64,000 nucleotides of DNA. Origin: a virus. Position numbers and translations under genes: made by a program. The notes below the pieces were generated by a model, which saw nothing but the letters and a program-made list of their open reading frames with translations, was not told the origin of the DNA and ran no database searches. Shown piece after piece: positions 563-56,728 of this stretch (its first letter is position 1; each line of letters starts with the position of its first letter). The stretch covers positions 1-64,000 of the IMG/VR virus record IMGVR_UViG_3300036981_000286. The stretch is one strand, 5' to 3'.

Positions 563-610
563 AAAGATCTTTGCAGGTTGATATCAAAACTAAATAACTA
601 CGATATCTTT

Positions 611-622
611 GGCATATTAAAT
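611..622 (+). promoter_or_regulatory. Putative phage early promoter motif GGCATATTAAAT
   Basis: Motif recurs at 1013, 3164, 3687 and 56717, always upstream of a terminator-bounded unit. Confidence 0.65.
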
Positions 623-702
623 GAGCTACGGGCGCGGTATCCGTAGTTTGCCAGCGTGTGGTTAGCTTTAACCCGCGGCTACACATACCGAAGGAGCGCG
701 TT

Positions 703-903
703 ATGTTTACTATTATTCTGGCGGTGATCACGGTAGCCCTCGTGGCCGATAGAATCAGGCTAAGTTTCTTGGTCCACGATCTGGAAACGGATCTGGATCG
801 CAGTCAAGGGGAGGCTATATTTCTCTGGTCCTGCATCAAGGACAAGGAAAAGGAAATCTGCCGGCAGCACGAACTGCGCGCCCAGCAGCGCAAGCTGGGC
901 TGA
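703..903 (+). CDS. Small membrane protein with coiled-coil tail (early cassette)
   Basis: SD aaggag then ATG 703 (track ORF starts at 658); N-terminal hydrophobic helix. Confidence 0.6.
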   Translation: MFTIILAVITVALVADRIRLSFLVHDLETDLDRSQGEAIFLWSCIKDKEKEICRQHELRAQQRKLG

Positions 904-953
904 AGAAAAGCGCACCTGGGCGAAAGCCTAGCTCTGCGCTTTCTTTTTGCTAT
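902..953 (+). terminator. Intrinsic terminator, 52-bp repeat copy 1
   Basis: aaagcgca...tgcgcttt stem with U-tract; identical to 1486-1537. Confidence 0.8.
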
Positions 954-1537: not shown

Positions 1538-1633
1538 CAGCCCGGGCTTATGCTTGTGCGCGCCCTGGCCTTCTGCGAAAATAGCTTTGCATTCAGCTTG
1601 GGAAGCTTTTTATTACCTTATGGTAATTCTCTT

Positions 1634-1980: not shown

Positions 1981-3066
1981 ATGCCTTTTCGTTCAGAAAA
2001 GCAACGTAGATATTTATTCTCTAAACACCCTGAACTTGCCAAGCGGTGGGCGCAGGAATACCCCGAATCGAATAAGGGCTTGCCAATGTATGCGCATAAT
2101 AACAAAAACCAGCATTCTGACGACTCTGTAAGCAAAGAGCAAGGAATCAAGCAGGGTATCTTGGGAATAATCAAAGCTTCTAGGTATATGGGTAAATTCC
2201 CTAATGATATCTTTGTAGCTCGAGTAAAACAGCGTAATTCCCCAGTAAACACCAAGGTTTCCAACTCTATTTTGAATTACGTGGCTGTTCCGCATAGTAG
2301 CCAGCCAGTTTCAGCCGGCGAAGAGCAAGTAATGTCTGCGGGTGCTGTCCTTGGGAATAAAGACAACGATAAGTCTTTGTCAGTAAGTAATAAAAACCAA
2401 GATCCTGTAGAGAGATTATTTGGGATCTCGAGCAAGTGTTCTTCGGCTTCGGCAAACCCTGCGAATGCAGAAATTGCGCCGATACTGAAGGAATTAGGCT
2501 TAGCGTGGCAGAAAGCTAGTGCGGTGATGAAACCCGGGAAAAACGTGCAGGCGATGATCCAGGCGAACATGGCAGCAAAGGATAAAGCGCAGAATGTGGC
2601 TCGTGGAATATTGGGCTCGGCGCGTGGGCTAGATCGTGGAACGGCCCAAATTTCAGCTCCCGACCCCTATCGCTTCTCTTCCCAGCAAAAAACTGATGGA
2701 TTAAACCTCCCGGCACTTTCCCGCGGTGTGAATACCCTGAAATTGCAGCGCCAAATGGCTCAAAACCCACTACCCTTGGGCCATCCGAGCGGAAATGGGC
2801 AGCAAACCCCGAATAATACCCCTGTTGCGAGCTATCCGGGTATGGCTAGTTCTCCTCCTCCAGCGAACACGCGATTGAACAGCAACGTAGCCGCTGGCCG
2901 AAGTGCCCGGACTGATCCTATTGGGAAACAGGGCCCGCTAACTATGGAAAACGGCAAGCCAAGCTTTACTCAGAATTTAACTGGGAATAACGCCCTTGGA
3001 GGCGCCGGGAATATGCACGGACTCGAAGGCGGGATCTCAAGCTTTGGTATCAAGCGCATGTCGTGA
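1981..3066 (+). CDS. Low-complexity putative virion internal protein
   Basis: N-terminal MPFRSEKQRRYLF...AKRW motif of a type seen in phage proteins; N/G/P-rich remainder; QKAS junction. Confidence 0.65.
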   Translation: MPFRSEKQRRYLFSKHPELAKRWAQEYPESNKGLPMYAHNNKNQHSDDSVSKEQGIKQGILGIIKASRYMGKFPNDIFVARVKQRNSPVNTKVSNSILNYVAVPHSSQPVSAGEEQVMSAGAVLGNKDNDKSLSVSNKNQDPVERLFGISSKCSSASANPANAEIAPILKELGLAWQKASAVMKPGKNVQAMIQANMAAKDKAQNVARGILGSARGLDRGTAQISAPDPYRFSSQQKTDGLNLPALSRGVNTLKLQRQMAQNPLPLGHPSGNGQQTPNNTPVASYPGMASSPPPANTRLNSNVAAGRSARTDPIGKQGPLTMENGKPSFTQNLTGNNALGGAGNMHGLEGGISSFGIKRMS

Positions 3067-3163
3067 TAAAATACCTAGAGAGATATTCAGAGAGAGATAT
3101 TTTCTAGCGTTTCTGGCCCCACCCCCAGCAAACTCCTGATACCTAAAAAAAAGCTGAAATACT

Positions 3164-3175
3164 GGCATATACTAT
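3164..3175 (+). promoter_or_regulatory. Putative early promoter variant GGCATATACTAT
   Basis: Same motif family; precedes an ORF-less structured region. Confidence 0.55.
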
Positions 3176-3538
3176 GAGGGAGCTTATGCTCTCCTCATAA
3201 GCTCGTCTCCGGACCCAGCCCCCTGCGCACTTGTCGAACACCCAAGTGCGTAGGGCGAGGCTGGGTTCAGGCGTTTACGGGCGTGTCAGCAGCAGGGCCC
3301 ATACTAAAAGCACTGACTCTCTCGCCCCAACGGATCTGCAGCGCGCTAGATCCGTGGCAAAGTTGCTCGTTTCGCAACTGGGCGAGAGATGAGCCGAAAC
3401 GCTTAAGCTTAAACGCTTAAGAGTAAATCATGTACACCAGAGAAGCTTAGTCAGCGCGCGACTCGGCTTCTCTGGCGCGGTATCCAGCCGTAGTGACGAA
3501 AGTGGACTAGAGCAGGCTTCGGCGCTGCTCTTTTTTTT
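3174..3538 (+). ncRNA. Candidate ~350-nt structured non-coding RNA
   Basis: No ORF in the track; bounded by promoter motif and terminator; several long stems (cccagcc/ggctggg, tgcgcacttg/caagtgcgta, ctctcgccca/tgggcgagag, ccagagaagc/gcttctctgg). Confidence 0.6.
3509..3538 (+). terminator. Intrinsic terminator
   Basis: agagcag-gcttcggcg-ctgctct followed by a T run. Confidence 0.8.
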
Positions 3539-3686
3539 GATATTAGCGCTTAGGGATATAGCTGGGTTATATCTCTCTAGCTATCTCTCTGGCATTACTG
3601 GGGCTAATACTAGGAGTATAAGCACGCGTAATACTCGGGTTATTAGCCCGAAAGCTAGCATTGGGCTAAATACAGGCCAAATACCC

Positions 3687-3698
3687 GGCATATGAAAT
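3687..3698 (+). promoter_or_regulatory. Putative early promoter variant GGCATATGAAAT
   Basis: Same motif family, upstream of ORF 3785. Confidence 0.55.
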
Positions 3699-3784
3699 AA
3701 GGAAGATTATGGTGTTCCGAGGGTATTCATCCTCGCCATGTTCTTCTCTGGGGACTAGCACCCTAAGCTAGAAGGAGAGTTATC

Positions 3785-4327
3785 ATGTCCAATAACAACA
3801 CCGCCGTCGAGATCACCACCCCGGTCGAGGCGGTCGTGGCCGAGACCCCGGTCGTCGAGACGCCCAAGGCCCCCGAGGCCAAGGCGCCGAAGATCGACAT
3901 CGTGACCCGCTTTAAGGCGGACGCGGAGTCGGTCAAGAAGGCGTTCCAGGCGCGCTTCTCGGCGGTGAGCATCAAGACGCCCACGGAGATCGGCATCGCC
4001 TGCCTGATCTGCCTGATCGTCGGCAGCCTCGGGGCTACGACGATCAACGCGGCCTCGATCGCCGCGGCCGAGAAGGCGAAGGTGCAGGCGGTGGAGGAGG
4101 CCGACAAGGCCGTGCGGGTGGCGAAGGCGGAAGCCGGAGTGCCCCCGACGTTCCTGCAGAGCCTGTACGGCGTGACGGTCCGGCCCGTGTCGGACGCCGC
4201 GCAGTATAGCTACGGCGCGGCGAAGAACGCGGACGGTCGCGCTTATGGCGCGGTCACGTCCACGTTCGCCTCGGGCTCCTCCGAGGCCCCGACGGTCAAG
4301 GTGGTGGCTCCGGCTGCGACCAAGTGA
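3785..4327 (+). CDS. Membrane-anchored Ala-rich hypothetical protein (early cassette)
   Basis: SD aaggag; very high GC3; central hydrophobic segment IGIACLICLIVGSLG. Confidence 0.75.
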   Translation: MSNNNTAVEITTPVEAVVAETPVVETPKAPEAKAPKIDIVTRFKADAESVKKAFQARFSAVSIKTPTEIGIACLICLIVGSLGATTINAASIAAAEKAKVQAVEEADKAVRVAKAEAGVPPTFLQSLYGVTVRPVSDAAQYSYGAAKNADGRAYGAVTSTFASGSSEAPTVKVVAPAATK

Positions 4328-18590: not shown

Positions 18591-19322
18591 ATGGCTAAGT
18601 CCAAACGATCAGCGTACAAATCGAGCCGCGGCGCACAACGAAAAACTACACGACAAGAAAAAAAGGAAAAAACGCAGCAAGCTATTATTGCGCCAATAGA
18701 AGTTAAGCCGCGCACTAAAGCGCAGCATGAAGCGCTAAAGTTAATTGAGAAAAATCACATTACGTTTTTGCTCGGCTCAGCTGGTTCCGGCAAAACGTTT
18801 CTAGCGATGGCGTACGCTATTAATGAGATTCTTGCGGGCACGCGTAACAAGATCGTGCTCACGCGACCTATCGTCGAGGCCGGCGAGAAACTAGGGTTTC
18901 TTCCGGGCACGTTTGGCGACAAGGTAAACCCGTACATGCAACCGCTGTACGACACAATGGATTTGCTTCTGGGCAAGCAATCCGCTGCCCGAGAGTTTGT
19001 TAATCGATCTATTATGTTGGCGCCGTTGTGCTACATGCGGGGCCGTACATTCCACGACGCCGTCTGTATCTTCGACGAAGCGCAAAACGCGACGTACACG
19101 CAATTAAAGCTGTTTCTCAGCCGTTTTGGCGATAATACCAAAGTGATCGTAACAGGTGACCCTGAACAAAGCGATCTATTTGATAAAGCGCATTACGACT
19201 ATTGTGCGTTAAGTGAAGTTCAGAAAAGACTGCAGGAATTAGACGGGGTAGGCATGATGGAGTTCGCCAACAGTGACGTTGTGCGCCATCCGCTAATTAC
19301 GCAGATTTTGAACCGCCTCTAG
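18591..19322 (+). CDS. phoH: PhoH family ATPase
   Basis: GSAGSGKT, TRPIVEAGEKLGFLPG, MRGRTF, DEAQN, GDPEQSD, VVRHPL. Confidence 0.95.
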   Translation: MAKSKRSAYKSSRGAQRKTTRQEKKEKTQQAIIAPIEVKPRTKAQHEALKLIEKNHITFLLGSAGSGKTFLAMAYAINEILAGTRNKIVLTRPIVEAGEKLGFLPGTFGDKVNPYMQPLYDTMDLLLGKQSAAREFVNRSIMLAPLCYMRGRTFHDAVCIFDEAQNATYTQLKLFLSRFGDNTKVIVTGDPEQSDLFDKAHYDYCALSEVQKRLQELDGVGMMEFANSDVVRHPLITQILNRL

Positions 19323-19407
19323 TATTGCACACTTGTGTAAGTGCCGTTACACTTGGCGCTCTGTAAAGATTGCCTTGCACAACTACGGCCCTACGCCCGA
19401 GGTAACC

Positions 19408-19878
19408 ATGTCAGTCGAGTTACTGCAAAAGTTAAACGACGCGCTTGAGCAAGAACGTAAGCATTTAGGTTTTTATCTTTACCATACTAGCGCTGTTACT
19501 GGCCTGCACGCGCAAGAGTACAGCGAGTTTTTGTTTGAGCAGGCTAAGAGCGAGCTTGAGCACGTAAAGCAGTTTCAAGACCTATTATTAGGCCTTGGAG
19601 CCTCGCTATCGCTCGGCTCCAAGGCCTTTCCGGTGTATGAAGACATCAAGTACATCATGTCATACGCGCTGCTGATAGAAGCAGAGGTCGTAGAGAATTA
19701 CACAGCTTTAATTGCCTCGTTAGATAGCGTACCGGTAGTTACGCTGACTACAGCTGACGGCGGTCCTCAGCCAGTTGGGCTTACGGCGGCAGACCTAAAA
19801 TGGATTGAGATATTTTTGGAAAAACAAATTGAGGACAGTCGGCAGGATTTAGATCGTATTAAACGGATTCTTACTTAG
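19408..19878 (+). CDS. Ferritin-like / bacterioferritin-like protein
   Basis: LNDALEQE...Y...ELEH...E.EVVENY...E four-helix di-iron pattern; start chosen at ATG after gaggt SD. Confidence 0.75.
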   Translation: MSVELLQKLNDALEQERKHLGFYLYHTSAVTGLHAQEYSEFLFEQAKSELEHVKQFQDLLLGLGASLSLGSKAFPVYEDIKYIMSYALLIEAEVVENYTALIASLDSVPVVTLTTADGGPQPVGLTAADLKWIEIFLEKQIEDSRQDLDRIKRILT

Positions 19879-20620: not shown

Positions 20621-22132
20621 ATGTCTGCGCCAGTTTACGTAGCGTTTCATCACGGCCTAGGAGATTGCGCAAATTTTGCGCACCAAGTGCTGCTGTATCG
20701 CCGCCGCGGCGTTGATCTGGTGGTTGTGTGCGCAAAAAACAAACGCGCGGTCTTCGACGCCATCGGCGTTCCGACGCAACTAACTACAGAGAACGGGGCG
20801 GCTCGGCCGCATCCGTGGTACGAGCCTAACCGACACCGCGCGTTAGGTCCGGATGACTTTTTGGCTGAGAATAAAATTCGGCGAAATTTTTGCAGTCCGC
20901 CGATGCCTCCGCGCGTCAAAGCCACCACTGAGCTTTGGGACGAGTATCTCGAAAATCGCGACTTGCTAGCGTTTAAATCTTACGCCGAACGCGTGGCGCC
21001 AATTGTGGCCGATCTGCAGCGCCCAATTACGTTAATTCACGCGCAGGGCAACACGTCGGCGTCGGAAAAAAACATGCCGCCGGATATGGCTAGCGACATC
21101 GCGCGTATCTTGCTGTCAAACACGACCGGCTCCGTTATCTTTCTAGATTGGGATCACAGAACATCGTGGTTTCACTCTGCGCGCTCACGGCACATTTTGT
21201 ATCACTACGATCGTAAACTTACTGGCCCCGACGCGCTTGTTGGGTTGATCGGCCTTGCCGATTTAATAATTGGCGTAGATAGCGGTCCGTATCATCTGGC
21301 CGGCATGATTGACGCGCCGTCGTTGGGCGTGTGGTTCGGCCACAATCCGGCAAATTACGCTATTCCGCGCAAAAATTGCGTAAACATTGTTCGCAATCAA
21401 GTTGAATTAAATACAGCCAGCGCGCATATGTACAACACTGTGCCGCAGTCTGCGATTACTGCGGAGTACGTGGCGCAAGCAGCGCAGCTTATGCTCGCCC
21501 CGCCGCGCTGGATTGAGGCAAATCAGGCGCATGATGTACAGCTGCAGCTTTGCACAAAAAAGTGCGATGGCGGCGTATTAGGCGTTGCGCACGCGCCCAA
21601 CGTGCTTGTTGACCGCCACTTGAGTTTTGGCCTGATCTTCGACCATTTGGCCGCTCGTTGTCGCCCACCGGTCATGGTCGAGACGGGCTGTATACGTTCT
21701 GACAACGACTGGGCCGGCGCCGGGTACTCAACGTTTTTATTTGGTTTATTTGCGCAACGCCTAAAAGGCCGGCTGCTCAGCATCGATTTAAGCCTTACGC
21801 ACAGCGCGTATGCCGCCCGTATTTGCAAGAACCTCGCCGCAGTCACAACCAAGTGTGCCGACTCGTTGGTCGCGCTGCGAGAAATAAATGAGCCAGTAGA
21901 TCTGTGCTATCTCGACAGCATGGACACGTACGTCGCCGGCCATGAAGAGCACGGCCTCGCGGAAGCCCAACTCTGCGCTGATAAGGTAGCGCCCGGTGGT
22001 CTGATTGTATTTGACGACACGCTGTACGAAGGCGCGATGTGCCGCGGCAAGGGCGCGAAAGCCGTCCCGTGGCTGCTGAACAATGGGTGGCGTATTTTAT
22101 TCGCCGGCCATCAGGTAGTACTTACGCGTTAA
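20621..22132 (+). CDS. GT9 (heptosyltransferase-like) glycosyltransferase fused to class I SAM methyltransferase
   Basis: HGLGD and IIGVDSGPYHLA (GT9); MVETGC, YLDS, GGLIVFDD (Methyltransf_24-like). Confidence 0.8.
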   Translation: MSAPVYVAFHHGLGDCANFAHQVLLYRRRGVDLVVVCAKNKRAVFDAIGVPTQLTTENGAARPHPWYEPNRHRALGPDDFLAENKIRRNFCSPPMPPRVKATTELWDEYLENRDLLAFKSYAERVAPIVADLQRPITLIHAQGNTSASEKNMPPDMASDIARILLSNTTGSVIFLDWDHRTSWFHSARSRHILYHYDRKLTGPDALVGLIGLADLIIGVDSGPYHLAGMIDAPSLGVWFGHNPANYAIPRKNCVNIVRNQVELNTASAHMYNTVPQSAITAEYVAQAAQLMLAPPRWIEANQAHDVQLQLCTKKCDGGVLGVAHAPNVLVDRHLSFGLIFDHLAARCRPPVMVETGCIRSDNDWAGAGYSTFLFGLFAQRLKGRLLSIDLSLTHSAYAARICKNLAAVTTKCADSLVALREINEPVDLCYLDSMDTYVAGHEEHGLAEAQLCADKVAPGGLIVFDDTLYEGAMCRGKGAKAVPWLLNNGWRILFAGHQVVLTR

Positions 22133-24567: not shown

Positions 24568-25572
24568 ATGGCAAAAGGTTTAGACGTTGGTACATCGTTC
24601 ATTGTCCTCGCGAAAGACGGCGCAGAGGGCAACGTGGACTACAAAGACTTTCGCGACGCGTTTTACGCAATTAAGCCGACCACGCCAGTCGCTACCAAAA
24701 TGATTGAAAAGGGGCTTGCCGGCAAAGTATTCGTAAAAGACGAGGACGGTACCTTTATTCTGCTCGGGCAGGACGCAATCGAGAAAGCCGTTGAGCGCAA
24801 TGACTCGGCTAAGCGCCCGATGTACCGCGGCGTTGTTAGCCCTAAAGAAAAAGACGCAAAACGCGTATTAGCTTTTATTCTGCAAGAAGTCGTGGGCAAA
24901 GCCGACGAGGCGGACGAAAAGATCGTGTTCTGTATTCCGGCGCAACCCGTGGATCAAGAAGACACAGATTTTGACGTTGGGTACCACGAAGACGTCGTTA
25001 AGCTTATTTTGTCTGGGGCCGGCTATCTTGCGCGGGCTATTAACGAAGCTGAGGCGCTGTGCTACTCAGAATTTGAAAACGACGATTACACCGGTATTGG
25101 CTTATCCTTCGGCGCCGGTATGGTAAATGTATGCGTAATGCTTAGCGGCGAGCCTACTGTGATGTTTTCGACAACCAAATCCGGCGACTGGGTTGATCGA
25201 ATGTCGGCCGTGGCTGTTAACGAGCCTGATAGCGTTGTGCAGGCGGAAAAAGAGCACGGCGTGTTTCAAGTAGGCGAGCCAAACGAAAATCACATTTTGG
25301 CTGCTGTGTCGGCGTATTACGACCGACTGATTGACTACACCACAAAGCAACTTGCCGCGGCGCTAACCGGGCACAAGTCACTACCAAAGTTTAAAGATCC
25401 GCTACCTATTGCCGTAGCGGGCGGAACATCAAAAGCTGCAGGTTTTGTTAAATTATTTGCCGAAAAACTGGCTGCAAATGGGTTCCCGCTGGCCGTTAAA
25501 GAAGTTAGGCATGCAGCGGATCCGCTTCACGCAGTTGCCAGAGGCTGTTTGATTGCCGCGAAAATTTTGTAA
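24568..25572 (+). CDS. Actin-like ATPase (MreB/MamK/ParM superfamily)
   Basis: GLDVGTS (phosphate 1), INEAEA (connect 1), SFGAGMVN (phosphate 2), VAGGTS (adenosine), DPLHAVARG (connect 2). Confidence 0.85.
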   Translation: MAKGLDVGTSFIVLAKDGAEGNVDYKDFRDAFYAIKPTTPVATKMIEKGLAGKVFVKDEDGTFILLGQDAIEKAVERNDSAKRPMYRGVVSPKEKDAKRVLAFILQEVVGKADEADEKIVFCIPAQPVDQEDTDFDVGYHEDVVKLILSGAGYLARAINEAEALCYSEFENDDYTGIGLSFGAGMVNVCVMLSGEPTVMFSTTKSGDWVDRMSAVAVNEPDSVVQAEKEHGVFQVGEPNENHILAAVSAYYDRLIDYTTKQLAAALTGHKSLPKFKDPLPIAVAGGTSKAAGFVKLFAEKLAANGFPLAVKEVRHAADPLHAVARGCLIAAKIL

Positions 25573-26436: not shown

Positions 26437-28371
26437 GTGAGTATGGATGGCATATCTTTTTTACAGCCGCTATCTCCTGAACTGCAGGAAGTTTTCTACG
26501 CGCGCGGACACGCACACGGCTGTGTAGCGCTTAATTGCAAAACTGCTGCTACAAACTATCATCTTGCCGGCCGCCTGTACCTGTCTAAAAGCGGCTGGCT
26601 GCTGCTGTCAGTGCCGAACGCTTTCGTGCGGGGTCTGTTTTCGGCGTTAACCGCGCCCGGCGCTGAGCTCCCGATCGCAGGCCTCATGAACGTCACCGGG
26701 GTGGCTGAAGACGCGTTAAATGCGCATATCTCGGTGCTCACGGCCGATGAGGTGGCGGCTATCGGCGCGGACAAGATTAATGAACGCGGGCAAATGTTCA
26801 ACTACGGGCTCGGGCCTGTAAAGGAAATACCGGTTAGCAACGTAGACGGTATTAGCCGCGTCTGGGCTGTGCAAGTTGTTAGCCCCGCGCTGACCGCGCT
26901 CCGCAAAAGTTACGGGCTAACGCCGCTCCCGCACGGCGACCACGCATTTCATATCACGATTGCTTGCCGCCGTAGACGCGTTCTTGGCAATAATGCCGTA
27001 AGTAAATTTGACGCTGCGTCTGGCCGCGGCGAGCTGAAGGCCGCATCTGACGATAAAACAACTTACGACTGCTGTTGTTCTGGTGCGTGCACCTGCCCCG
27101 CGACATGTGTTTGTAAAAAGTTTGGTTGTTGCAGTGTGCGCAAGACTGCAGCGCACGAAGGCGCGCCGTGGGATACGCCGGCCGACAAGTTACCGTGGCG
27201 CGAACGCGTAGAGGTGTACGCGCACGACCCTAAAGGCCGCATTTACGGCGGAATTTGGAATACAGACAAATCTTTTGCTGTTCCGGGGGGCGGTATAGAC
27301 CCCGGTGAAGATCCCGGGCAAGCGGCGATTCGCGAGCTTGAAGAAGAGACCGGCATAAAAGCGACAAATCCGCGTGTATTGCCGGTAGCTCCGGTAGACA
27401 ATGCGTGGAGCGAAAAACATCGCCAAGAAAAACAGCGCAATTTTGCGGGGTCTCGCACTCATTTCGTCGCGGTGGACATTCTTAATAAGTTGCAACGAAA
27501 AAATCTTGATAAGTGGGACGCAGCCCAGCGCAAGATGTATGACCCGTCCGCAGCAGCGGAAATGATGGCAGGCCACAAAAACTTTATGGCGCCAAGTGTC
27601 GCCGCCGGCCGACTCGCGGCCTTGCGGCATATTATTGCTAACGCCGCTAAAAAGACAGCCGCCGATTTACTTCTAGGCGGAGCAGCAGACAACAAACCAG
27701 ATTCAGATTTTCCGGCAGATAAACTCCAAGAGGGCACAGAACATGAGCGAGAACATACCGACAATGATCAAATCGCCAAAGAAATTGCCAAGGATCATCT
27801 GCAAACAGAACCCGCCTACTACACGCACAAAGAACAAAAAGAAGCGGTAAATAAAATACCCGCAATCATCTTGCAGCTACGTGCCGCCAAAGAACATTCT
27901 GACGCTAAACGATACGATCAAAAGAATGCTATCTTACGTGAATTAATGCTTAAGGCGCCGAACGAGTGGTATGTCGACGACCCGCTGCCGCATCACATGG
28001 GCGTCACGCATGACCCCACTAAATTCAAGTTCCACGCCGACCCGACTATTATCCCGCCTGACGTAAAGGTGCGGGCAAAAGCAGCTGAAGCTGAGCCGTA
28101 TTTAGCGCAACTTAAAGCTACGCCGGTCGCTTACAGCAAAGACGAATCGGTATGGCGAAATTTCGTAAAGCATTTAATGACCGTAAAAAATAGAGGCGAC
28201 AATCAGCTGCATATGCAGGCAAATACTGAAAGCTGGCGCAAAACACTAGACCCGGCTTACCGGCATCAGCAAAATATGGCATTAGCTCGCGGTGAGGCTC
28301 CTAAACAGCCCGGCTTCGCGACGCAGATGATTAACCGTCACGGAGGCAACGTACTCGCTGCGTTGTCATAA
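26437..28371 (+). CDS. Polyprotein: 2H phosphoesterase + Cys-rich mini-domain + Nudix hydrolase + DUF5661-like + unknown domains
   Basis: AHISV/FHITI; CCCSGACTCPATCVCKKFGCC; GGIDPGEDPGQAAIRELEEETG; EGTEHEREHT...AKEIAKDHL; KTA/KAA/KEA junctions. Confidence 0.85.
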   Translation: MSMDGISFLQPLSPELQEVFYARGHAHGCVALNCKTAATNYHLAGRLYLSKSGWLLLSVPNAFVRGLFSALTAPGAELPIAGLMNVTGVAEDALNAHISVLTADEVAAIGADKINERGQMFNYGLGPVKEIPVSNVDGISRVWAVQVVSPALTALRKSYGLTPLPHGDHAFHITIACRRRRVLGNNAVSKFDAASGRGELKAASDDKTTYDCCCSGACTCPATCVCKKFGCCSVRKTAAHEGAPWDTPADKLPWRERVEVYAHDPKGRIYGGIWNTDKSFAVPGGGIDPGEDPGQAAIRELEEETGIKATNPRVLPVAPVDNAWSEKHRQEKQRNFAGSRTHFVAVDILNKLQRKNLDKWDAAQRKMYDPSAAAEMMAGHKNFMAPSVAAGRLAALRHIIANAAKKTAADLLLGGAADNKPDSDFPADKLQEGTEHEREHTDNDQIAKEIAKDHLQTEPAYYTHKEQKEAVNKIPAIILQLRAAKEHSDAKRYDQKNAILRELMLKAPNEWYVDDPLPHHMGVTHDPTKFKFHADPTIIPPDVKVRAKAAEAEPYLAQLKATPVAYSKDESVWRNFVKHLMTVKNRGDNQLHMQANTESWRKTLDPAYRHQQNMALARGEAPKQPGFATQMINRHGGNVLAALS

Positions 28372-36377: not shown

Positions 36378-39300
36378 ATGCCACTTCCCGAACAGTCAAA
36401 CTCGATCCTAGGACCGCAGACCCGAGAATTCGGCGACGTTAACGCGTTACGTCAAAATATCTTTCAGCAATCGCAGCAGTCTGCAATTGGCGTAGCGCCG
36501 TTCGAGCCCGTTTTTACTCGAGAAGATATTTTTAATACTGCGGCTACTCAAGCCCGCGGTATTAAACCGGTCCAGAATGATCTGTATACGCTCAGCCTCG
36601 GCGATGTGGGTTACGAAGGCCCCGAGCGGTTTACAAAAAAAGATCACAAGCAAGCTGTGCTTTCTCACGGCTCCCTCGCGCGAAAGCTGCGCGGTACGTG
36701 GAACCTGACTGACAATAAAACGGGAACTGTTATCGCTCAGAAGCGGTCAACGTTGGCTAACGTGCCGTACATGACCGACGCTGGTACGTTTGTGCATAAC
36801 GGCGTGGAATATACGCTGGCCCATCAGATGCGACTTCGCCCGGGCGTATACACCCGCGAAAAAGACAACGGCGAACTTGAAGCGCATGTAAATGTGCTCC
36901 CCGGAAAAGGTCGAATGCACCGATATTATCTTGACCCCAAAACGGGTGTATTCAAGATCAATATCGGACAGGCGCAAATTCCGCTTATGCCGCTGCTCAA
37001 AGCGCTCGGCACTTCGGAGCAAGATATTCGCAAGGCGTGGGGCAACGAGCTTACCGCCGTGAATATGGAAAAGGGCGACGCCGGCACGCTAGACAAGCTG
37101 TACAGCCGGCTTGTCTACAAAGCCATACCCGGAATTGACGCCCCGGGAAAACAAAAAGCCATCGCCGACGAGTTTTTAAAAATGGAGATGGATCCCGAGG
37201 TGACAAAGCGCACGCTTGGCGAGCCTATCAAAAATTTAACGCCTGACGCCATTCTCAAGATCACGAAGAAGCTGATTGCCGTAAACCGGAAAGAGACCGA
37301 ATCAGACGACCGCGACAGCATGGCTTTTCAACAAGTTCTTGGCCCTGAAGATTTAATTGCTGAGCGCTTCTCAAAAGATAGGGCCATGCTGCGGCAATTG
37401 CTATGGAAAGCCACGGCAAAGAAAACACTCGATCATGTACCGACTGGTGCGTTTAACAAAGCGATCGTGGCTGCGCTTATTGGTAGCGGTCTCGGGTCTA
37501 GTCTTGAGGAAATCAACCCGGCGGAAATTTACGACCACCAAACGCGGGTTACCAGATTAGGCGAGGGTGGCATTGGCTCGCTTGACGCCGTGCCGCAAGA
37601 ATCGCGCAGCGTGCAGCCGAGTCACTTCGGGTTTGTAGATTATCTCCGCACGCCGGAGTCTGGAAAAGTCGGCGTGGACATGCGGTTCGCCCGCGGAGCA
37701 GTAAAAGGCTCTGACGGCAAGGTCTACATGAAAGTAAAGAATCTGAAGACAGGCGAGCTTGAGTACAAGTCGCCGCAGGACATTGCTGATATGCCTCTCG
37801 TGTTCCCGGGTGAGGATAAAAGCGACCTCCCGACCGTGGCCGCAATTGTTAACGGCAAGATGAAATACATTCCGCGCGATCAGGCGCAGTACATGGCTCC
37901 AAATATGGATGCGTCATTCTCGACGTTGTCTAACATGGTGCCGCTTAAATCCATGATGAAGGGGCATCGCGTTATCATGGGTTCGCGCATGTTTACGCAG
38001 GCGCTGCCCCTTGTTGGCGCTGAATCGCCGTTTATTCAATCAGCCATTGCCGACGACCCTTCGCGCTCGTACGAAGACGATATGGGCAAGAGCATGGGCG
38101 CCGCATACGCCGACGAGCTTTCGCAAGTTGTATCTGTTACGCCAGACGAGATTGTTTTACGCAATAAAGACGGCGAGCAAAAAACAGTTGAGCTTTACAA
38201 TGACGCGCCGTTTAACCGAAAAACTTTCTGGACACAAACAGCAGCGGTAAAACCCGGCGACACAGTTAAACCCGGCCAGCTTATTGCTCAGTCAAACTTT
38301 ACAGACAAGAACGGCACCGCAGCGCTTGGTTTAAATATGCGCGTGGGTTACTTACCGTTTCGAGGGCTTGTGTACGACGACTCAGTGGTGATATCTGAGT
38401 CGGCAGCAAAGCGCCTGACATCTGAGCACATGTATCAGCACGAAGCCGAATCGGACGACAACACGCACATAGACAAGAAGAAATTTATTAGCTTGTTCCC
38501 GAGTGAGTACGACAAAAAAACTTTAGATAACTTTGACGATAATGGCGTAATTAAAAAAGGCGCTGTTGTCACGTACGGCGACCCGCTTATTCTCGTGAGC
38601 AAAGCGCGAGAAACCACATACGGACAAGTGTTTCGCGGCAAGTCGGCTAACTTCACCAATGACTCTGTTACTTGGGAGCACCACTCGCCGGGCGTTGTTA
38701 CAGACATCGCTAAAACAAAACACGGCTACAGCGCAATTGTTAAAAGCAAAGCCCAAATGGAGGTAGGCGACAAACTTACCGGGCGATTCGGTGACAAGGG
38801 TGTCGTGGCTGGGATTATCGCTGACGATCAAATGCCGCAGGATGCGCAAGGCCGCCCAATGGAGGTGCTTGTCAGCCCGCTTGGTTTAGCCAGCCGAATT
38901 AATCCGTCGCAGATCGTAGAGGCAGCGCTCGGTAAAGTAGCTGAGAAAACTGGGCAGCCGTTCAAAATTAAAGATTTTGACGACCAGACCGACCTTATCG
39001 ATTTTGCTAAAGCAGAATTACGAAAACACCAACTCACAGATCTTGAGGATGTTACTGATCCCGAGACTGGGCGCAAAATTAAAGGCGTGCTTACTGGTAA
39101 TCGTTTTTTCATGAAACTGCACCACACGAGCGAAAGCAAAGCGCAGGGCCGGTCTACTGGCGGATACACGGCTGAGGGCGCGCCAGCCAAGGGCGGGTCC
39201 GAAGGCGCTAAGCGCGTCGGCATGCTCGATCTGGGCGCTTTGCTCTCGCACGGCGCCGGTCAGGTTATTCGTGACGCCAAAATGGTTCGCGGGCAAGCTA

Positions 39301-40826
39301 ATCCGGAATACTGGTCGCAGGTAATGGCGGGCTATACGCCGCCGCTTCCAAAGATTCCGCAAGTTTACACAAAATTCGTTGAGCAGCTTCGGGGCGCAGG
39401 CATTAACACCGTGCGCGAAGGCACAAAGACGCACATCATGGCGTTGACCGACAAAGAAATTGACAAACTCACCGGCGACCGCGAAATACAAAACGCCGAT
39501 ACGGTTGATTGGAAATCTGGCTTGCGGCCTAAAACTGGTGGGCTTTTTGACGAAAGTCTGACCGGTGGCCATAACGGTAATCGCTGGGCTAAGGTCACCC
39601 TGCACGAGCCCATGCCGAATCCGGTTATGGAAGAGCCAATTAGGCGCACTCTTGGGCTTACTGAAAAAAAGTTCAGAGATATCTTAGCCGGCCAAGAGAA
39701 GCTTAACGACGAAACCGGTCCAATGGCTATTAAGAACGCGCTAAAGCGTATTAATGTGCCTAAAGCTATAGAGCAGGCGCGTCAAGATATTCAGTCCGGA
39801 CGCAAGGTCGCCCGGGATGCTGCCGTCCGCCGATTAGCCTTTTTAAAAACCTCAGAAAAAACTGGCACACACCCCGAAGAGTGGATGTTGACCAAGATGC
39901 CGGTAATACCGCCAGCGTTTCGGCCCGTCTCGACGATGGGGCAGAAAAAACTACCGCTCGTTGCCGACGCAAATTATTTGTACAAAGAATTGCTCGACGC
40001 AAACTCTGTATTAAAAGATTCTGCTGGCGTACTTACCGACGTGGGCAACGAACGGCTAGGGCTGTACGACGCAATGAAGGGCGTGACTGGCATGGGCGAC
40101 CCTGTGCAGGCCAAGAACGTCGAGCGGCGTGTGCGCGGCTTTTTATCTCAGATTTTTGGAAGCTCGCCAAAGTACGGCACTGTGCAACGCAAACTTCTCA
40201 GCTCAACTGTGGATCTTGTTGGTCGCGCTGTAATTACACCTAATCCGGATTTGGATATGGATCAGGTCGCCCTCCCCGAAGAAAAAGCGTGGGAAATTTA
40301 TAAGCCGTTTATTGTGCGCGGGCTGGTTCGTCGTGGGTTACCGCGCATGGAAGCAATTAAGTCGTTTGACGACAAAAACAATATGGCTCGCGGTGAATTA
40401 AACCAGCAAATGAGTTCTCGGCCAATTATTATTAATCGCGCTCCGGTACTGCACCGTTACGGCATAATGGCGTTTTATCCGCGCCTTACTAAAAATAAAA
40501 CAATGGAAGTGAGCCCGCTCGTAACCAAGGGTTTCGGCGCTGACTTCGACGGCGACGCCATGCAATTCCATGTGCCGAGCACTGACGCCGCGGGCCGAGA
40601 AGCCGCTGAAAAAATGCTGCCAAGTCGTAATTTATTTGCGGCGTCAACGTTTAAGGGTCATTACACCCCAGTAGCGGAATTACAGTCTGGCCTGTATGTT
40701 GCTTCCAACCGGATTAACAAGAAGTCGCCCACGCGGGTCTTTAAATCCGCTAAAGATGCTATTGCCGCTTATCGGCGTGGCGATATTGAGGTCGACACGC
40801 CGGTGCATATTGTGGAGAATGATTAA
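36378..40826 (+). CDS. rpoBC: DNA-directed RNA polymerase, beta subunit fused to N-terminal part of beta'
   Basis: Beta motifs QMRLRPGVY, RLGEGG, TPESGKVG, GDKLTGRFGDKGV, SPLGLASRIN, MKLHH...GRSTG; beta' motifs PVIPPAFRP, GRAVI, NRAPVLH, catalytic ADFDGD. Confidence 0.95.
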   Translation: MPLPEQSNSILGPQTREFGDVNALRQNIFQQSQQSAIGVAPFEPVFTREDIFNTAATQARGIKPVQNDLYTLSLGDVGYEGPERFTKKDHKQAVLSHGSLARKLRGTWNLTDNKTGTVIAQKRSTLANVPYMTDAGTFVHNGVEYTLAHQMRLRPGVYTREKDNGELEAHVNVLPGKGRMHRYYLDPKTGVFKINIGQAQIPLMPLLKALGTSEQDIRKAWGNELTAVNMEKGDAGTLDKLYSRLVYKAIPGIDAPGKQKAIADEFLKMEMDPEVTKRTLGEPIKNLTPDAILKITKKLIAVNRKETESDDRDSMAFQQVLGPEDLIAERFSKDRAMLRQLLWKATAKKTLDHVPTGAFNKAIVAALIGSGLGSSLEEINPAEIYDHQTRVTRLGEGGIGSLDAVPQESRSVQPSHFGFVDYLRTPESGKVGVDMRFARGAVKGSDGKVYMKVKNLKTGELEYKSPQDIADMPLVFPGEDKSDLPTVAAIVNGKMKYIPRDQAQYMAPNMDASFSTLSNMVPLKSMMKGHRVIMGSRMFTQALPLVGAESPFIQSAIADDPSRSYEDDMGKSMGAAYADELSQVVSVTPDEIVLRNKDGEQKTVELYNDAPFNRKTFWTQTAAVKPGDTVKPGQLIAQSNFTDKNGTAALGLNMRVGYLPFRGLVYDDSVVISESAAKRLTSEHMYQHEAESDDNTHIDKKKFISLFPSEYDKKTLDNFDDNGVIKKGAVVTYGDPLILVSKARETTYGQVFRGKSANFTNDSVTWEHHSPGVVTDIAKTKHGYSAIVKSKAQMEVGDKLTGRFGDKGVVAGIIADDQMPQDAQGRPMEVLVSPLGLASRINPSQIVEAALGKVAEKTGQPFKIKDFDDQTDLIDFAKAELRKHQLTDLEDVTDPETGRKIKGVLTGNRFFMKLHHTSESKAQGRSTGGYTAEGAPAKGGSEGAKRVGMLDLGALLSHGAGQVIRDAKMVRGQANPEYWSQVMAGYTPPLPKIPQVYTKFVEQLRGAGINTVREGTKTHIMALTDKEIDKLTGDREIQNADTVDWKSGLRPKTGGLFDESLTGGHNGNRWAKVTLHEPMPNPVMEEPIRRTLGLTEKKFRDILAGQEKLNDETGPMAIKNALKRINVPKAIEQARQDIQSGRKVARDAAVRRLAFLKTSEKTGTHPEEWMLTKMPVIPPAFRPVSTMGQKKLPLVADANYLYKELLDANSVLKDSAGVLTDVGNERLGLYDAMKGVTGMGDPVQAKNVERRVRGFLSQIFGSSPKYGTVQRKLLSSTVDLVGRAVITPNPDLDMDQVALPEEKAWEIYKPFIVRGLVRRGLPRMEAIKSFDDKNNMARGELNQQMSSRPIIINRAPVLHRYGIMAFYPRLTKNKTMEVSPLVTKGFGADFDGDAMQFHVPSTDAAGREAAEKMLPSRNLFAASTFKGHYTPVAELQSGLYVASNRINKKSPTRVFKSAKDAIAAYRRGDIEVDTPVHIVEND

Positions 40827-40849
40827 GGCCACCAAACAAGGAGATTTTC

Positions 40850-41566
40850 ATGTCCATGATCAATTACGAACTTTTGCGCCTTGCCCGCGCGACCATGCAA
40901 AAAGCTGCCGCCGTACCACCACCGCCGGCTGATCCTGCCGCCATGGGCGGTATGGGGGCGCCTCCGATGGATCCGGCCGCTATGGGCGCTGACCCGATGG
41001 CTGCGATGGCCGCTGCGCCTATGGACATGGGTATGGGCGCTGGCGCCCCTGCCCCGGCCCCTGCGCCCGCTCCGGCTCCGGCTCCCGCCCCGGCTCCTGG
41101 CGCCGCACCTGCTGGCGCGCAGCAAAAACTTAAGCCGGAACAAATGATGCAAATGATCGATTACCGCATGTACAACATGCAGCAGCAGCTTACGGCGATC
41201 ATGAACGCAATGGGCGTGCAATTGCCGCCTGAGGCGATTGTTCTCCCGCCGGGCTCGACCAGCGCACCGTCAGTTGAGTCGGCTTTGCCGGGCGCTGCTA
41301 ACGCGCCTACGGCCGCAGCTGACCCTGCCGCTGCTGGGCAATTGCCACCGGATGTGTACGCCGGGCAAGACCCCACCCAAAACGGCGGCGCAGTAGCTCC
41401 GATCCCGCCCGCGAAAGCCGCTTGGTGGCAAGTTGACGAATCGCCAAAATCGGCTTCGTATATCGGTGACCCGGTTGCGCGCACAGAAGCGCAGCAAATT
41501 AACTTACAGGTTTCAGCGGACGCAGCTTCAGCGCTGTACAGGAGCTTGATGCGGAATGCGCGTTAA
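40850..41566 (+). CDS. Pro/Ala/Met-rich putative virion protein between the RNAP genes
   Basis: QKAAA, AKAAW, PKSAS junctions; PMDPAAMG repeats. Confidence 0.7.
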   Translation: MSMINYELLRLARATMQKAAAVPPPPADPAAMGGMGAPPMDPAAMGADPMAAMAAAPMDMGMGAGAPAPAPAPAPAPAPAPAPGAAPAGAQQKLKPEQMMQMIDYRMYNMQQQLTAIMNAMGVQLPPEAIVLPPGSTSAPSVESALPGAANAPTAAADPAAAGQLPPDVYAGQDPTQNGGAVAPIPPAKAAWWQVDESPKSASYIGDPVARTEAQQINLQVSADAASALYRSLMRNAR

Positions 41567-41798
41567 AACGCAGCACTATCTTCAACCGAGTGTTACTGAC
41601 GCGCATAGCGTTATTGTTGAAGATCGTTTTGGAAATATTCTGTACGTAGCGGTAGAAGTAGACAACGGCGCTATCGTAACGGCGCAAGCAGGCGACAGTA
41701 ATTTTGCTGCCGTCATTAAAGCGTTAGGTTTTGATAAAGTTACGACAGTGCACGATATTAAGCCAAAATCAATAGAAGAAACAAAGAGCTTGTTGTGA
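41556..41798 (+). CDS. Small hypothetical protein
   Basis: Overlaps upstream gene; stop lies 1 nt before the beta'-C start. Confidence 0.65.
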   Translation: MRVKTQHYLQPSVTDAHSVIVEDRFGNILYVAVEVDNGAIVTAQAGDSNFAAVIKALGFDKVTTVHDIKPKSIEETKSLL

Positions 41799-41799
41799 A

Positions 41800-56692: not shown

Positions 56693-56716
56693 CAGCTAAA
56701 AAACGCGCAAAAAAGC

Positions 56717-56728
56717 GGCATATTAAAT
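56717..56728 (+). promoter_or_regulatory. Putative early promoter motif GGCATATTAAAT
   Basis: Exact match to 611 and 1013, preceded by cagctaaaaaa. Confidence 0.65.

What the first reader, a model, noticed from the sequence alone, without database searches (positions are those of the whole stretch)
3164..3540. Early cassette that encodes only a ~350-nt highly structured RNA
Seen: the promoter motif (3164) and terminator (3509-3538) enclose no ORF but a series of stems. These include atgagggag/ctcctcat, nested cccagcc..tgcgcacttg/caagtgcgta..ggctggg, gtcag/ctgac, a multibranch closed by ctctcgccca/tgggcgagag containing acggatct/agatccgt and agttgc/gcaact, and ccagagaagc/gcttctctgg. I see no tmRNA, RNase P, SRP or hammerhead core. 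Inference: a novel early-expressed phage ncRNA, possibly a decoy, antitoxin, anti-defence RNA or RNAP-associated RNA.
Basis: partly seen in the sequence, partly recalled or inferred. Interest (0 to 1): 0.72.

Follow-up and report, generated by a model that had tools for sequence, protein, structure and literature searches.

The report
ORF-less early phage RNA cassette
An uncultivated large phage carries a promoter-to-terminator unit that encodes no protein but a folded RNA of about 360 nt; its first ~100 nt are conserved in distant relatives, the rest is a lineage-specific add-on, and its function is still unknown.

Summary
Window 3143-3538 is a complete transcription unit. It starts at a bipartite promoter motif, CTAAAW-N15-GGCATAT (5 copies in the window, all on the + strand, 0 expected by chance). 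It ends at a strong hairpin plus U8 terminator. It has no conserved ORF and no Rfam, tRNA or tmRNA match. It folds far better than shuffles (z = -8).

The RNA is a composite.
- **Conserved core (3173-3268).** This comprises a 5' hairpin P1, the motif UCUCCGGACCC (invariant except its first base in the close relative L002) and a 23-bp hairpin P2. It is single-copy and syntenic in four phage lineages whose flanking protein is only about 35-40% identical. In P2, 8 of 22 pairs show changes on both sides.
- **Role of P2 in relatives.** There P2 is followed by a U-tract and ends a roughly 100-nt RNA. It is also the first terminator after the upstream operon.
- **Extension (3278-3538).** In the window lineage the U-tract is lost, and about 260 nt of extra hairpins (P3-P7) follow up to a new terminator. 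This part is absent from the searched records of three more distant relatives and only modestly structured (z = -3.6 and -2.0). It contains a swapped 77-nt patch, and one metagenome contig shows different sequence after P2.

Expression is untested, because no RNA-seq run was available. My best reading is a new phage early ncRNA that acts in trans (about 0.45). Rivals are an attenuated leader, a cassette relic, and a DNA-level signal.

The parts
3077..3100 (.). Left pair of tandem AGAGAGATAT(T) repeats. They are inverted relative to the 3568-3590 repeats. Possibly operator-like sites bracketing the cassette.
   Evidence: the repeat finder D6 and I1-I3. Partly kept in L002. Absent from the short-form relatives.
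3143..3175 (+). Promoter: CTAAAA-N15-GGCATAT followed by ACTAT. If CATATA is a -10-like hexamer, the spacer is 17 bp. The inferred start site is about 3176-3180.
   Evidence: 5 of 5 copies on the + strand, 0 expected. The same motif precedes the core in L002, L167 and L168, and precedes other genes in L007, L008, L087 and L174.
3173..3199 (+). P1, a hairpin at the 5' end. Its base GAGG/CCUC is kept in L167 and L168. L087 and L177 lack it.
3206..3216 (+). Motif UCUCCGGACCC. CUCC is single-stranded and GGACCC forms the base of P2.
   Evidence: CTCCGGACCC is identical in all 5 sequences. The motif occurs once in the 79.6-kb genome.
3211..3268 (+). P2, a 23-bp hairpin (10 bp + 13 bp, with a 3-nt bulge). 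Its loop UCGAACACC is shared with L002, L167 and L168.
   Evidence: 95.5% of cells are paired and 8 of 22 pairs change on both sides. 0 of 500 shuffles reach this, and slid controls give at most 2 such pairs. It is single-copy in each record.
3269..3284 (+). Former U-tract position, and a swap junction. Relatives read GGGTTTTCTTTTGCTAT here; the window reads GGGTTCAGGCGTTTACGGG, so transcription should read through.
   Evidence: Alignment A4. A contig of metagenome run X10 matches 3164-3277 and then continues with unrelated sequence (table 7).
3285..3317 (+). P3: a 5-bp stem with a 23-nt loop.
   Evidence: All differences from L002 lie in the loop.
3318..3389 (+). P4, a three-way junction closed by TCTCTCGCCC/GGGCGAGAGA. 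It holds P4a (3330-3355) and P4b (3361-3379).
   Evidence: (I10). P4b changes from U-A to C-G in L002. The closing helix is weaker in L002.
3372..3448 (+). Patch replaced in L002 and in run X7 by a stretch of the same length with 47% divergence. The replacement again forms the P4b 3' arm and a P5 hairpin. The window's P5 is 3399-3424.
   Evidence: table 5.
3437..3475 (+). P6: a 16-bp hairpin with loop AGCGCGC.
   Evidence: (I5). It is kept in L002 with an internal loop.
3476..3508 (+). Highly conserved tract, mostly unpaired. It shares the 12-mer GGCGCGGTATCC with the 5' hairpin of the cassette at 631-642.
   Evidence: The 3449-3540 segment that contains this tract differs from L002 at 3.3% of positions, against 15% at 4-fold sites. 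12-mer.
3510..3538 (+). Intrinsic terminator: stem GAGCAGGC/GCGCTGCTC, loop UUCG, then U8. It is followed by the GATAT variant of the cassette end signature.
   Evidence: Identical in L002.
3568..3590 (.). Right pair of (A)TATCTCTCT repeats, the inverted partners of 3077-3100.
   Evidence: the repeat finder D5 and I1-I3.

Best explanation
This is a real, independently transcribed non-coding RNA gene of the phage's early cassette class. A phage-type bipartite promoter (CTAAAA-N15-GGCATAT) starts transcription near 3178.

The first ~100 nt form a conserved small-RNA core. It has a 5' hairpin P1 that probably protects the 5' end, as the hairpins after the other cassette promoters would. It then has a short single-stranded CUCC next to the invariant base of a long hairpin, P2.

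In related phages P2 plus a U-tract is the terminator. It ends a ~100-nt RNA and also the upstream operon, which has a different promoter type. That layout matches bacterial sRNAs that have their own promoter but share the terminator of the upstream mRNA.

In the window lineage the U-tract was lost. The polymerase therefore reads on through ~260 nt of added hairpins (P3-P7) to a new U8 terminator, giving a ~360-nt RNA.

I infer that the RNA acts in trans as a structured ligand, that is, as a sponge or scaffold for a host or phage protein. Recognition would be through the invariant P2 base and loop and through the conserved unpaired 3476-3508 tract. I do not expect long antisense pairing. The 3' extension would be an exchangeable accessory module. 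P2, at 23 bp, may also be an RNase III site that separates core and extension.

Shown: the unit's anatomy, its non-coding nature, the conservation and covariation of the core, purifying selection on both ends, and the lineage-specific extension. Inferred: transcription, early timing, trans action, protein binding and processing.
For: - **Promoter.** The motif is present with exact spacing: 5 copies, all on the + strand, 0 expected. The same motif precedes the core in L002, L167 and L168.
- **Terminator.** A hairpin plus U8 ends the unit.
- **Non-coding.** There is no conserved ORF, and natural variants carry 1-, 2- and 4-nt indels.
- **Not a known family.** No Rfam family matches.
- **Core is specific.** It is single-copy and syntenic in four lineages.
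- **P2 covariation.** 95.5% of cells are paired, 8 of 22 pairs change on both sides, and 0 of 500 shuffles reach this.
- **P2 outlives its terminator role.** Its sequence is kept although it no longer terminates. The core segment 3171-3277 diverges from L002 by 3.7% and the 3' segment 3449-3540 by 3.3%, against 15% at 4-fold sites of the adjacent gene (P about 2e-4 each).
- **Structure-preserving change.** Outside the swapped patch, differences fall in 3.9% of paired and 11.6% of unpaired positions (Fisher P = 0.016). All changes in the firm helices give wobble or compensated pairs.
- **Swapped patch.** It has the same length and rebuilds the same hairpins, which implies a divergent homologous donor RNA.
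- **No long antisense target.** None was found in the phage's own 79.6 kb.
- **Timing.** The closest isolate by RNAP similarity, Salmonella phage Arash, packages RNAP beta, beta' and a sigma-like protein in virions (PMC10585845). This is consistent with phage-specific early promoters.
Against: - No expression data could be obtained.
- Promoters, 5' UTRs and other terminators are also unusually conserved in this phage group. For example, the terminator at 902-953 recurs in L087 and L177. Conservation alone therefore does not prove an RNA function.
- The extension is only modestly more structured than shuffles, and no more than the adjacent spacer.
- Its P3-P4 part diverges at about the neutral rate (13.8%).
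- It is confined to one lineage.
- No partner protein, target or repeated loop motif was identified.
- Only four independent lineages support the covariation.
Confidence: 0.45

Rival explanations
1. It is a cis-acting attenuated leader, comparable to lambda PR'-tR' '6S' RNA or to nut/put elements. Promoter A fires constitutively and stops at the promoter-proximal terminator: P2 in relatives, 3510-3538 here. A phage factor would recognise the invariant CUCCGGACCC/P2 element on the nascent RNA, make the polymerase terminator-resistant, and so extend transcription into 3785 and beyond. On this reading the RNA is a by-product, and the sequence between P2 and the terminator is a largely free spacer.
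For: - The unit sits directly upstream of a gene cassette, in conserved order, in all relatives.
- The base and loop of P2 are sequence-invariant while its upper helix covaries. That pattern fits a protein recognition site.
- The P3-P4 part diverges at the neutral rate, and the sequence after 3277 is swappable.
- Another promoter followed at once by a hairpin plus U-run occurs before an ORF at L087:908-995.
Against: - A full second promoter (3666-3698) with its own conserved 5' UTR lies between the terminator and the gene in every lineage, so read-through is not needed to express it.
- The 3' part of the extension (3449-3508) is under purifying selection.
- No antiterminator candidate was identified.
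Confidence: 0.23
2. It is an empty or decayed expression cassette. Recombination between the shared promoter and terminator modules removed a former cargo gene. What remains is a 5' stabiliser hairpin, an ex-terminator (P2) and debris of other cassettes. It is transcribed, if at all, without any function of its own. P2 is kept in relatives only because it terminates the upstream operon.
For: - Cassette parts are repeated and exchanged in this genome: 902-953 equals 1486-1537, and this terminator also occurs in L087/L177.
- The tract at 3474-3485 shares a 12-mer with the 5' hairpin of the cassette at 631-642.
- Both the extension and the neighbouring spacer are similarly hairpin-rich.
- The extension has a narrow distribution.
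Against: - P2 stays 96% identical after losing its terminator role.
- Both ends of the RNA diverge 4-5 times more slowly than 4-fold sites.
- The substitutions spare the helices.
- The promoter-plus-core unit persists at the same place in lineages with ~35-40% protein identity.
- The 12-mer match is at chance level (E = 1.4).
Confidence: 0.2
3. It is a DNA-level signal rather than an RNA. The 720-bp ORF-free block (3067-3784) has inverted tandem repeats at both sides, strong palindromes and an iteron-like array. It could be an injection-stop signal of the T5 type, a replication origin activated by transcription, or a packaging site.
For: - Inverted tandem AGAGAGATAT repeats bracket the unit.
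- A repeat array at 3541-3660 includes a 10-nt unit present once here and three times in L002 and X7.
- In three of the assemblies the locus lies within about 0-3 kb of a contig end.
Against: - The repeats and the array are absent from L167 and L168, which keep the core.
- In G004 the locus is not at a contig end.
- The promoter and the U8 terminator give the block a clear strand and RNA logic.
- P2 tolerates G-U pairs. These are meaningful in RNA but not in a DNA cruciform.
Confidence: 0.06

Closest known systems
Bacterial sRNAs with their own promoter that share the terminator of the upstream mRNA (DapZ/MicL type); comparison from my own knowledge
   Same: The promoter lies between the stop codon of the upstream operon and that operon's terminator. 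The short RNA ends at the shared hairpin plus U-tract. A short conserved unpaired stretch precedes the terminator hairpin (short-form relatives).
   Different: It is phage-encoded and uses a phage-specific promoter. No Hfq or ProQ link and no target is known. In the window lineage the shared terminator is disabled and the RNA is 3.5 times longer.
Lambda PR'-tR' '6S' transcript and nut/put antitermination RNAs (own knowledge)
   Same: An ORF-less short transcript runs from a phage promoter to a promoter-proximal terminator upstream of genes. Conserved stem-loops lie right after the promoter.
   Different: An independent promoter follows the terminator here. No Q/N-like factor was identified. 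There is no sequence or Rfam similarity.
phi29 pRNA, and T4 stable RNAs C and D (own knowledge)
   Same: These are stable, ORF-less structured RNAs encoded by virulent phages. pRNA comes from an early promoter at the genome's left end.
   Different: No match to any Rfam model. This phage group is unrelated. No packaging role is indicated.
RNA-based counter-defence (RNA anti-CRISPRs, pseudo-ToxI antitoxin mimics; own knowledge)
   Same: Small promoter-driven non-coding units lie in a variable early or accessory region. Module content varies between strains.
   Different: There is no tandem repeat array. Resemblance to CRISPR repeats could not be tested because the host is unknown.
phiKZ early transcriptome (PMC8244752)
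   Same: phiKZ is a phage with its own multisubunit RNAP and phage-specific early promoters.
   Different: In phiKZ, one 75-nt sRNA was predicted and could not be confirmed by northern blot. An early ORF-less cassette like this one has no described counterpart there.

Membership tests
Any Rfam 15 family (including 6S, pRNA, tmRNA, RNase P, SRP, ribozymes, riboswitches, GOLLD/ROOL/HEARO) | Covariance-model score at or above the family's gathering threshold | tested here: not met
   The only window-wide hits are two tRNAs, elsewhere. In 3000-3850 at E<=10 the best hit scores 22 bits against a gathering score of 47, and all E-values are >=0.15.
tRNA / tmRNA | Cloverleaf, or tRNA-like domain plus tag ORF, detected by ARAGORN | tested here: not met
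   Only tRNA-Ser (20135) and tRNA-Asn (26360) were found.
Intrinsic (Rho-independent) terminator, applied to P2 | G+C-rich hairpin immediately followed by a U-tract | tested here: not met
   In the window and L002 the stem is followed by UUCAGGCG. In L167, L168, L087 and L177 it is followed by UUUUCUUUU, so the feature is met there.
Intrinsic terminator, applied to 3510-3538 | G+C-rich hairpin immediately followed by a U-tract | tested here: met
   A stem of 8 pairs with one bulged base, loop UUCG, dG -12.5 kcal/mol, then U8.
Terminator-sharing sRNA with its own promoter (DapZ/MicL type) | Promoter downstream of the upstream ORF's stop codon, with a 3' end at that operon's terminator | tested here: met
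   By sequence signals only. The motif lies between the stop codon and P2 in L168, and in the window between the stop codon at 3064-3066 and the first terminator. L167 starts at the promoter, so its upstream gene is not seen.
Terminator-sharing sRNA with its own promoter (DapZ/MicL type) | Accumulates as a discrete RNA and regulates targets in trans through a seed | not testable with these tools
   No RNA run was available and the host is unknown.
Cis-antisense or long-antisense phage RNA | Extended complementarity to another transcript of the phage | tested here: not met
   blastn-short against the whole 79.6-kb record gave no complementary match longer than 11 nt, all at chance E-values.
Type III antitoxin (ToxI-like) RNA | Tandem array of direct repeats of about 34-36 nt | tested here: not met
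   The only tandem repeat inside the RNA is a 14-nt imperfect pair, D4.
RNA anti-CRISPR (solitary repeat unit) | Sequence and structure resemble the CRISPR repeat of the host's system | not testable with these tools
   The host and its CRISPR repeats are unknown.
Protein-coding gene or small ORF | An open frame conserved between relatives, with in-frame indels only | tested here: not met
   ORFs differ in frame and length between the window and L002. Indels are 1, 2 and 4 nt.
MITE or other small transposon | Terminal inverted repeats bound the inserted segment and are flanked by a target-site duplication | tested here: not met
   Inverted repeats exist, but they enclose the promoter and core, which are ancestral in repeat-free relatives. 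No flanking duplication was seen.

The most novel reading that the evidence does not exclude
The conserved core (P1, CUCCGGACCC, P2) is a dedicated recognition RNA for the phage's own transcription machinery or for a host factor. The site just 3' of P2 is a slot where exchangeable RNA cargo modules are plugged in and swapped between strains. These modules would be RNA-only accessory or counter-defence elements. That would make this the RNA counterpart of the protein 'moron'/accessory cassettes of phage early regions.
Probability: 0.12. Interest if true: 0.8.

Novelty: new member of a known kind. Interest (0 to 1): 0.45.

Why it matters
Few non-coding RNAs are known from virulent phages, and early ones from phages that bring their own RNA polymerase are essentially undescribed. 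This locus offers three things. First, it is a cleanly delimited candidate with a defined promoter class. Second, it has a conserved core that can be compared across lineages. Third, the window lineage and its relatives form a natural experiment: the same core exists as a ~100-nt terminated RNA in relatives and as a ~360-nt read-through RNA here. It also shows how an RNA gene can grow through loss of a terminator U-tract followed by capture and exchange of hairpin modules. The practical value is limited until a host or isolate is available.

Tried and rejected
- About 20 homologues of the upstream protein at 31-39% identity, some on contigs of 100-205 kb, could therefore not be inspected for the RNA.
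- **No RNA holder listed**, so expression could not be examined.
- **INPHARED phages.** No DNA match to 3060-3790 and no tblastn match to the upstream protein.
- **Downstream protein.** Scanning IMG/VR with it gave nothing.
- **Profile scans with the upstream protein.** These mostly recovered unrelated phages that share only its N-terminal MPFxSEKQRR domain.
- **Pattern scans for the core.** They added L167, L168 and L177. The other hits were chance matches in coding DNA, plus one antisense tRNA at L173. Two GTDB hits were chance.
- **Alternative continuation in run X10.** It was not found in IMG/VR.
- **Extension in relatives.** No homologue in records G001 or G003-G005.
- **Core model R1.** No further copies in 178 loci or in five whole records.
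- **Antisense targets.** None in the phage's own genome.
- **P6 and the downstream 5' UTR.** The P6 5' arm is complementary to 9 nt of that UTR (3743-3751). This is not conserved in L002, so I rejected it as chance.
- **Shared loop 8-mer.** CAGCGCGC occurs in the P4a and P6 loops, but one such repeat is expected by chance in 377 nt, and it is not conserved in L002.
- **Anti-SD idea.** CUCC pairs with only 5 nt of the phage's ribosome-binding sites, which is too little to claim.
- **MITE reading.** Rejected (see the membership test).
- **Sigma factor.** No Sigma70_r2 match in this 39%-complete record, which is uninformative.
- **Promoter motif in isolates.** Absent from Salmonella phage Arash and Vibrio phage D69.

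Full report
**Context.**
- The window is the first 64 kb of a 79.6-kb IMG/VR record, estimated 39% complete. All large ORFs are on the + strand.
- The record encodes large multisubunit-RNAP-like proteins at 36378-43680. Their nearest isolates are Vibrio phage D69 and Salmonella phage Arash, at only 32% identity.
- Arash virions contain RNAP beta, beta' and a sigma-like protein (PMC10585845). Phage-specific early promoters are therefore plausible for this group.

**The observation.**
- The stop codon of a 361-aa ORF ends at 3066 and the next start codon is at 3785. The 718 nt between them have no conserved ORF.
- 3164-3540 folds at -173.7 kcal/mol, z = -8.1 against dinucleotide shuffles. The minus strand folds equally well, as expected for hairpins. 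Only the + strand has the U8 tail.
- In a GC-corrected scan of the whole record, most 200-nt windows starting from 3076 to 3601 are in the top few percent (two dip to about 6-7%). A few other intergenic spots are more extreme.
- GGCATAT at 3164 is half of a bipartite motif, CTAAAW-N15-GGCATAT. The motif has five copies, all on the + strand and intergenic, against none in 100 shuffles.
- The spacing equals a 17-bp spacer if CATATN is a -10-like hexamer. That suggests a sigma-type recognition, which is an inference.
- The same motif precedes genes in related and more distant metagenomic phages: L007, L008, L087, L168 and L174. It is absent from Arash and D69.

**Not a known RNA.**
- No Rfam family reaches its gathering score, and relaxed searching gives only noise.
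- ARAGORN finds only two tRNAs, elsewhere.
- INPHARED holds nothing similar.

**Comparative anatomy.**
- One close relative, L002, has the upstream protein at about 93-96% identity, with 15% divergence at 4-fold degenerate sites. It carries the whole RNA.
- More distant phages have the upstream protein at roughly 35-40% identity: L167, L168, and L087 with its near-twin L177. At the same place, upstream of a conserved promoter and 5' UTR and (where the contig reaches that far) after the same gene, they carry a short version.
- L167 and L168 have the full promoter motif. L087 and L177 have a TGGTATAAT-type variant instead.
- In the short version P1 follows (L087 and L177 lack it). Then come the invariant UCUCCGGACCC and a long hairpin P2. 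There are exactly 45 nt between that motif and GGGTTTT. After P2 come a U-tract and the cassette end signature TTTTGCTAT.
- P2 is well supported. 95.5% of cells are paired, and 8 of 22 pairs change on both sides. 0 of 500 shuffles reach this, and slid controls collapse.
- The lower helix and the 5' flank of P2 are almost invariant, while the upper helix covaries freely. The loop CGAACACCC is shared by three of the four lineages.
- A covariance model of P2 finds exactly one copy per genome record and none in about 170 other loci. P2 is therefore a specific element, not the phage's generic terminator.
- The upstream operon has a different conserved promoter-like sequence: window 1570-1606, and likewise in L168. 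In the short-form phages P2 is thus both that operon's terminator and the end of a ~100-nt RNA made from its own promoter.

**What is special in the window lineage.**
- The U-tract after P2 is replaced (GGGTTCAGGCG). About 260 nt follow: P3, the P4 three-way junction, P5, P6 and a conserved unpaired tract. They run to a new hairpin plus U8 terminator.
- This extension has no homologue in the searched records of three more distant relatives (G003-G005) or in G001, a close relative whose contig seems to lack this end. None was found anywhere else I could search.
- On its own it is moderately structured, z = -3.6 in the window and -2.0 in L002. That is comparable to the adjacent spacer, z = -3.0.

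**Divergence between the window and L002** (the neutral proxy is 15% at 4-fold sites):

| Segment | Divergence | Note |
|---|---|---|
| 3171-3277 (core) | 3.7% | P about 2e-4 against the neutral proxy |
| 3278-3371 (P3-P4) | 13.8% | about neutral |
| 3372-3448 (patch) | 47% | same length, rebuilds P4b 3' arm and a different P5 |
| 3449-3540 (3' end) | 3.3% | P about 2e-4 against the neutral proxy |

- Outside the patch, 7 of 181 paired positions differ against 13 of 112 unpaired ones (P = 0.016). The changes in firm helices give wobble or compensated pairs.
- A replacement that keeps both length and architecture implies recombination with a more divergent homologous RNA. The extension family is therefore probably wider than the databases show.
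- Contigs from four further metagenomes (runoff and freshwater, separate studies) carry variants with 1-, 2- and 4-nt indels.
- One contig matches 3164-3277 and then continues with unrelated sequence. The point just after P2 is therefore a swap junction.

**A control that limits the claim.**
- Other regulatory modules are also strongly conserved across these lineages.
- The terminator at 902-953, repeated at 1486-1537, recurs in L087 and L177.
- The promoter and 5' UTR of the next cassette are nearly identical in L167 and L168.
- Long structured leaders are common after these promoters in related phages. One promoter in L087 is followed at once by a hairpin plus U-run.
- Conservation by itself therefore does not prove a trans-acting RNA.

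**Interpretation.**
- I favour a genuine non-coding RNA gene, at confidence 0.45. It would be a conserved small-RNA core that shares the upstream operon's terminator. In this lineage it was extended by terminator loss and acquired an exchangeable 3' module.
- It most likely works as a structured protein ligand. Recognition would be through the invariant P2 base and loop and through the conserved unpaired 3476-3508 tract.
- It has no extended complementarity to the phage's own genome.
- Retention of P2 at 96% identity after it stopped being a terminator is the strongest single argument that P2 does more than terminate.
- The main rival, at 0.23, is a cis-acting attenuated leader or antitermination site of the lambda PR'-tR'/nut kind. 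That reading explains the invariant recognition-like base and the near-neutral spacer. It is weakened by the independent promoter that follows the terminator in every lineage.
- A decayed or empty cassette (0.20) and a DNA-level signal (0.06) remain possible. The inverted tandem AGAGAGATAT repeats that bracket the unit, and the repeat array at 3541-3660, point to extra DNA-level regulation. They are absent from the short-form relatives.

**Limits.**
- No RNA-seq holder was listed.
- The host is unknown.

**Verdict.** The feature is real, and it is a new RNA family candidate of a known general kind, a phage-encoded ncRNA. The '350-nt structured RNA' is a composite whose conserved part is only the first ~100 nt. 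Function is unresolved.

Noticed in passing
window 590-622, 992-1024, 3143-3175, 3666-3698, 56696-56728: A bipartite promoter, CTAAAW-N15-GGCATAT(T/G)AAAT, occurs five times, each followed within ~10-40 nt by a hairpin. The same motif occurs in related and more distant metagenomic phages (L007, L008, L087, L168, L174). It defines a promoter class for this uncultivated phage group.
   Followed up: partly
window 3077-3100 and 3568-3590: Two tandem AGAGAGATAT repeats lie upstream, and two inverted copies lie downstream, of the RNA unit, 468 nt apart. This looks like paired operator sites (DNA looping?). They are present in altered form in L002 and absent from L167 and L168.
   Followed up: partly
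window 3541-3660; L002 equivalent: An iteron-like array of ATA(C/T)-N-GGG-type units lies between the terminator and the next promoter. The 10-nt unit GGAGTATAAG is present once here and three times in L002 and in metagenome run X7. L087 and L177 have a different TATAC-rich array at the same place.
   Followed up: no
window 3694-3784; L167:186-276; L168 minus strand 2563-2472; G002:93964-94031: The 5' UTR of the next cassette starts GAAATAAGGAAGATTATGGTGTTCC, nearly identical across lineages with ~35-40% protein identity. Its 3' part is repeated at a second place in the L002 record. The apparent mini-ORF in it is not conserved: the ATG is ACG in L087.
   Followed up: partly
window 902-953 = 1486-1537; L087:5904-5950; L177:5407-5453: A second terminator type (AAGCGCAYCTGGG...GCGCTTT, then a T-rich run, then GCTAT) is duplicated exactly in the window and about 85% conserved in distant relatives. 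Terminators here behave as conserved, exchangeable modules.
   Followed up: partly
window 1570-1606; L168 minus strand ~3690-3650: A different conserved promoter-like sequence (TTCTGCGAAAATAGC..TTCAGCTTGGGA) precedes the operon that ends at the RNA locus. It suggests a second temporal promoter class, interleaved with the early cassettes.
   Followed up: no
window 631-642 and 3474-3485: The 12-mer GGCGCGGTATCC, followed by CGTAGT, is shared between the 5' hairpin loop of the first cassette and the conserved unpaired tract of the RNA. By BLAST statistics this is at chance level (E = 1.4), but both copies lie in early transcripts.
   Followed up: partly
window 24568-25572: This ORF matches Pfam Volactin (an actin-like family) at E = 2e-63. 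Other context genes are PhoH (18591-19322), a ferritin-like protein (19333-19878), a GT9-methyltransferase fusion (20621-22132), a 2H-phosphoesterase plus NUDIX polyprotein (26437-28371) and an MpsC-domain protein (93-494).
   Followed up: no
L007:1410-1490: A tRNA-like T-arm (GCAGGTTCGAATCCTGC) lies in the intergenic DNA after an early-type cassette of a more distant phage.
   Followed up: no
L087:908-995 and L087:1716-2150: There are further units with little or no coding capacity behind the same promoter class. One is a promoter followed at once by a hairpin plus U7. The other is a stretch of ~400 nt with only a 26-codon ORF.
   Followed up: no
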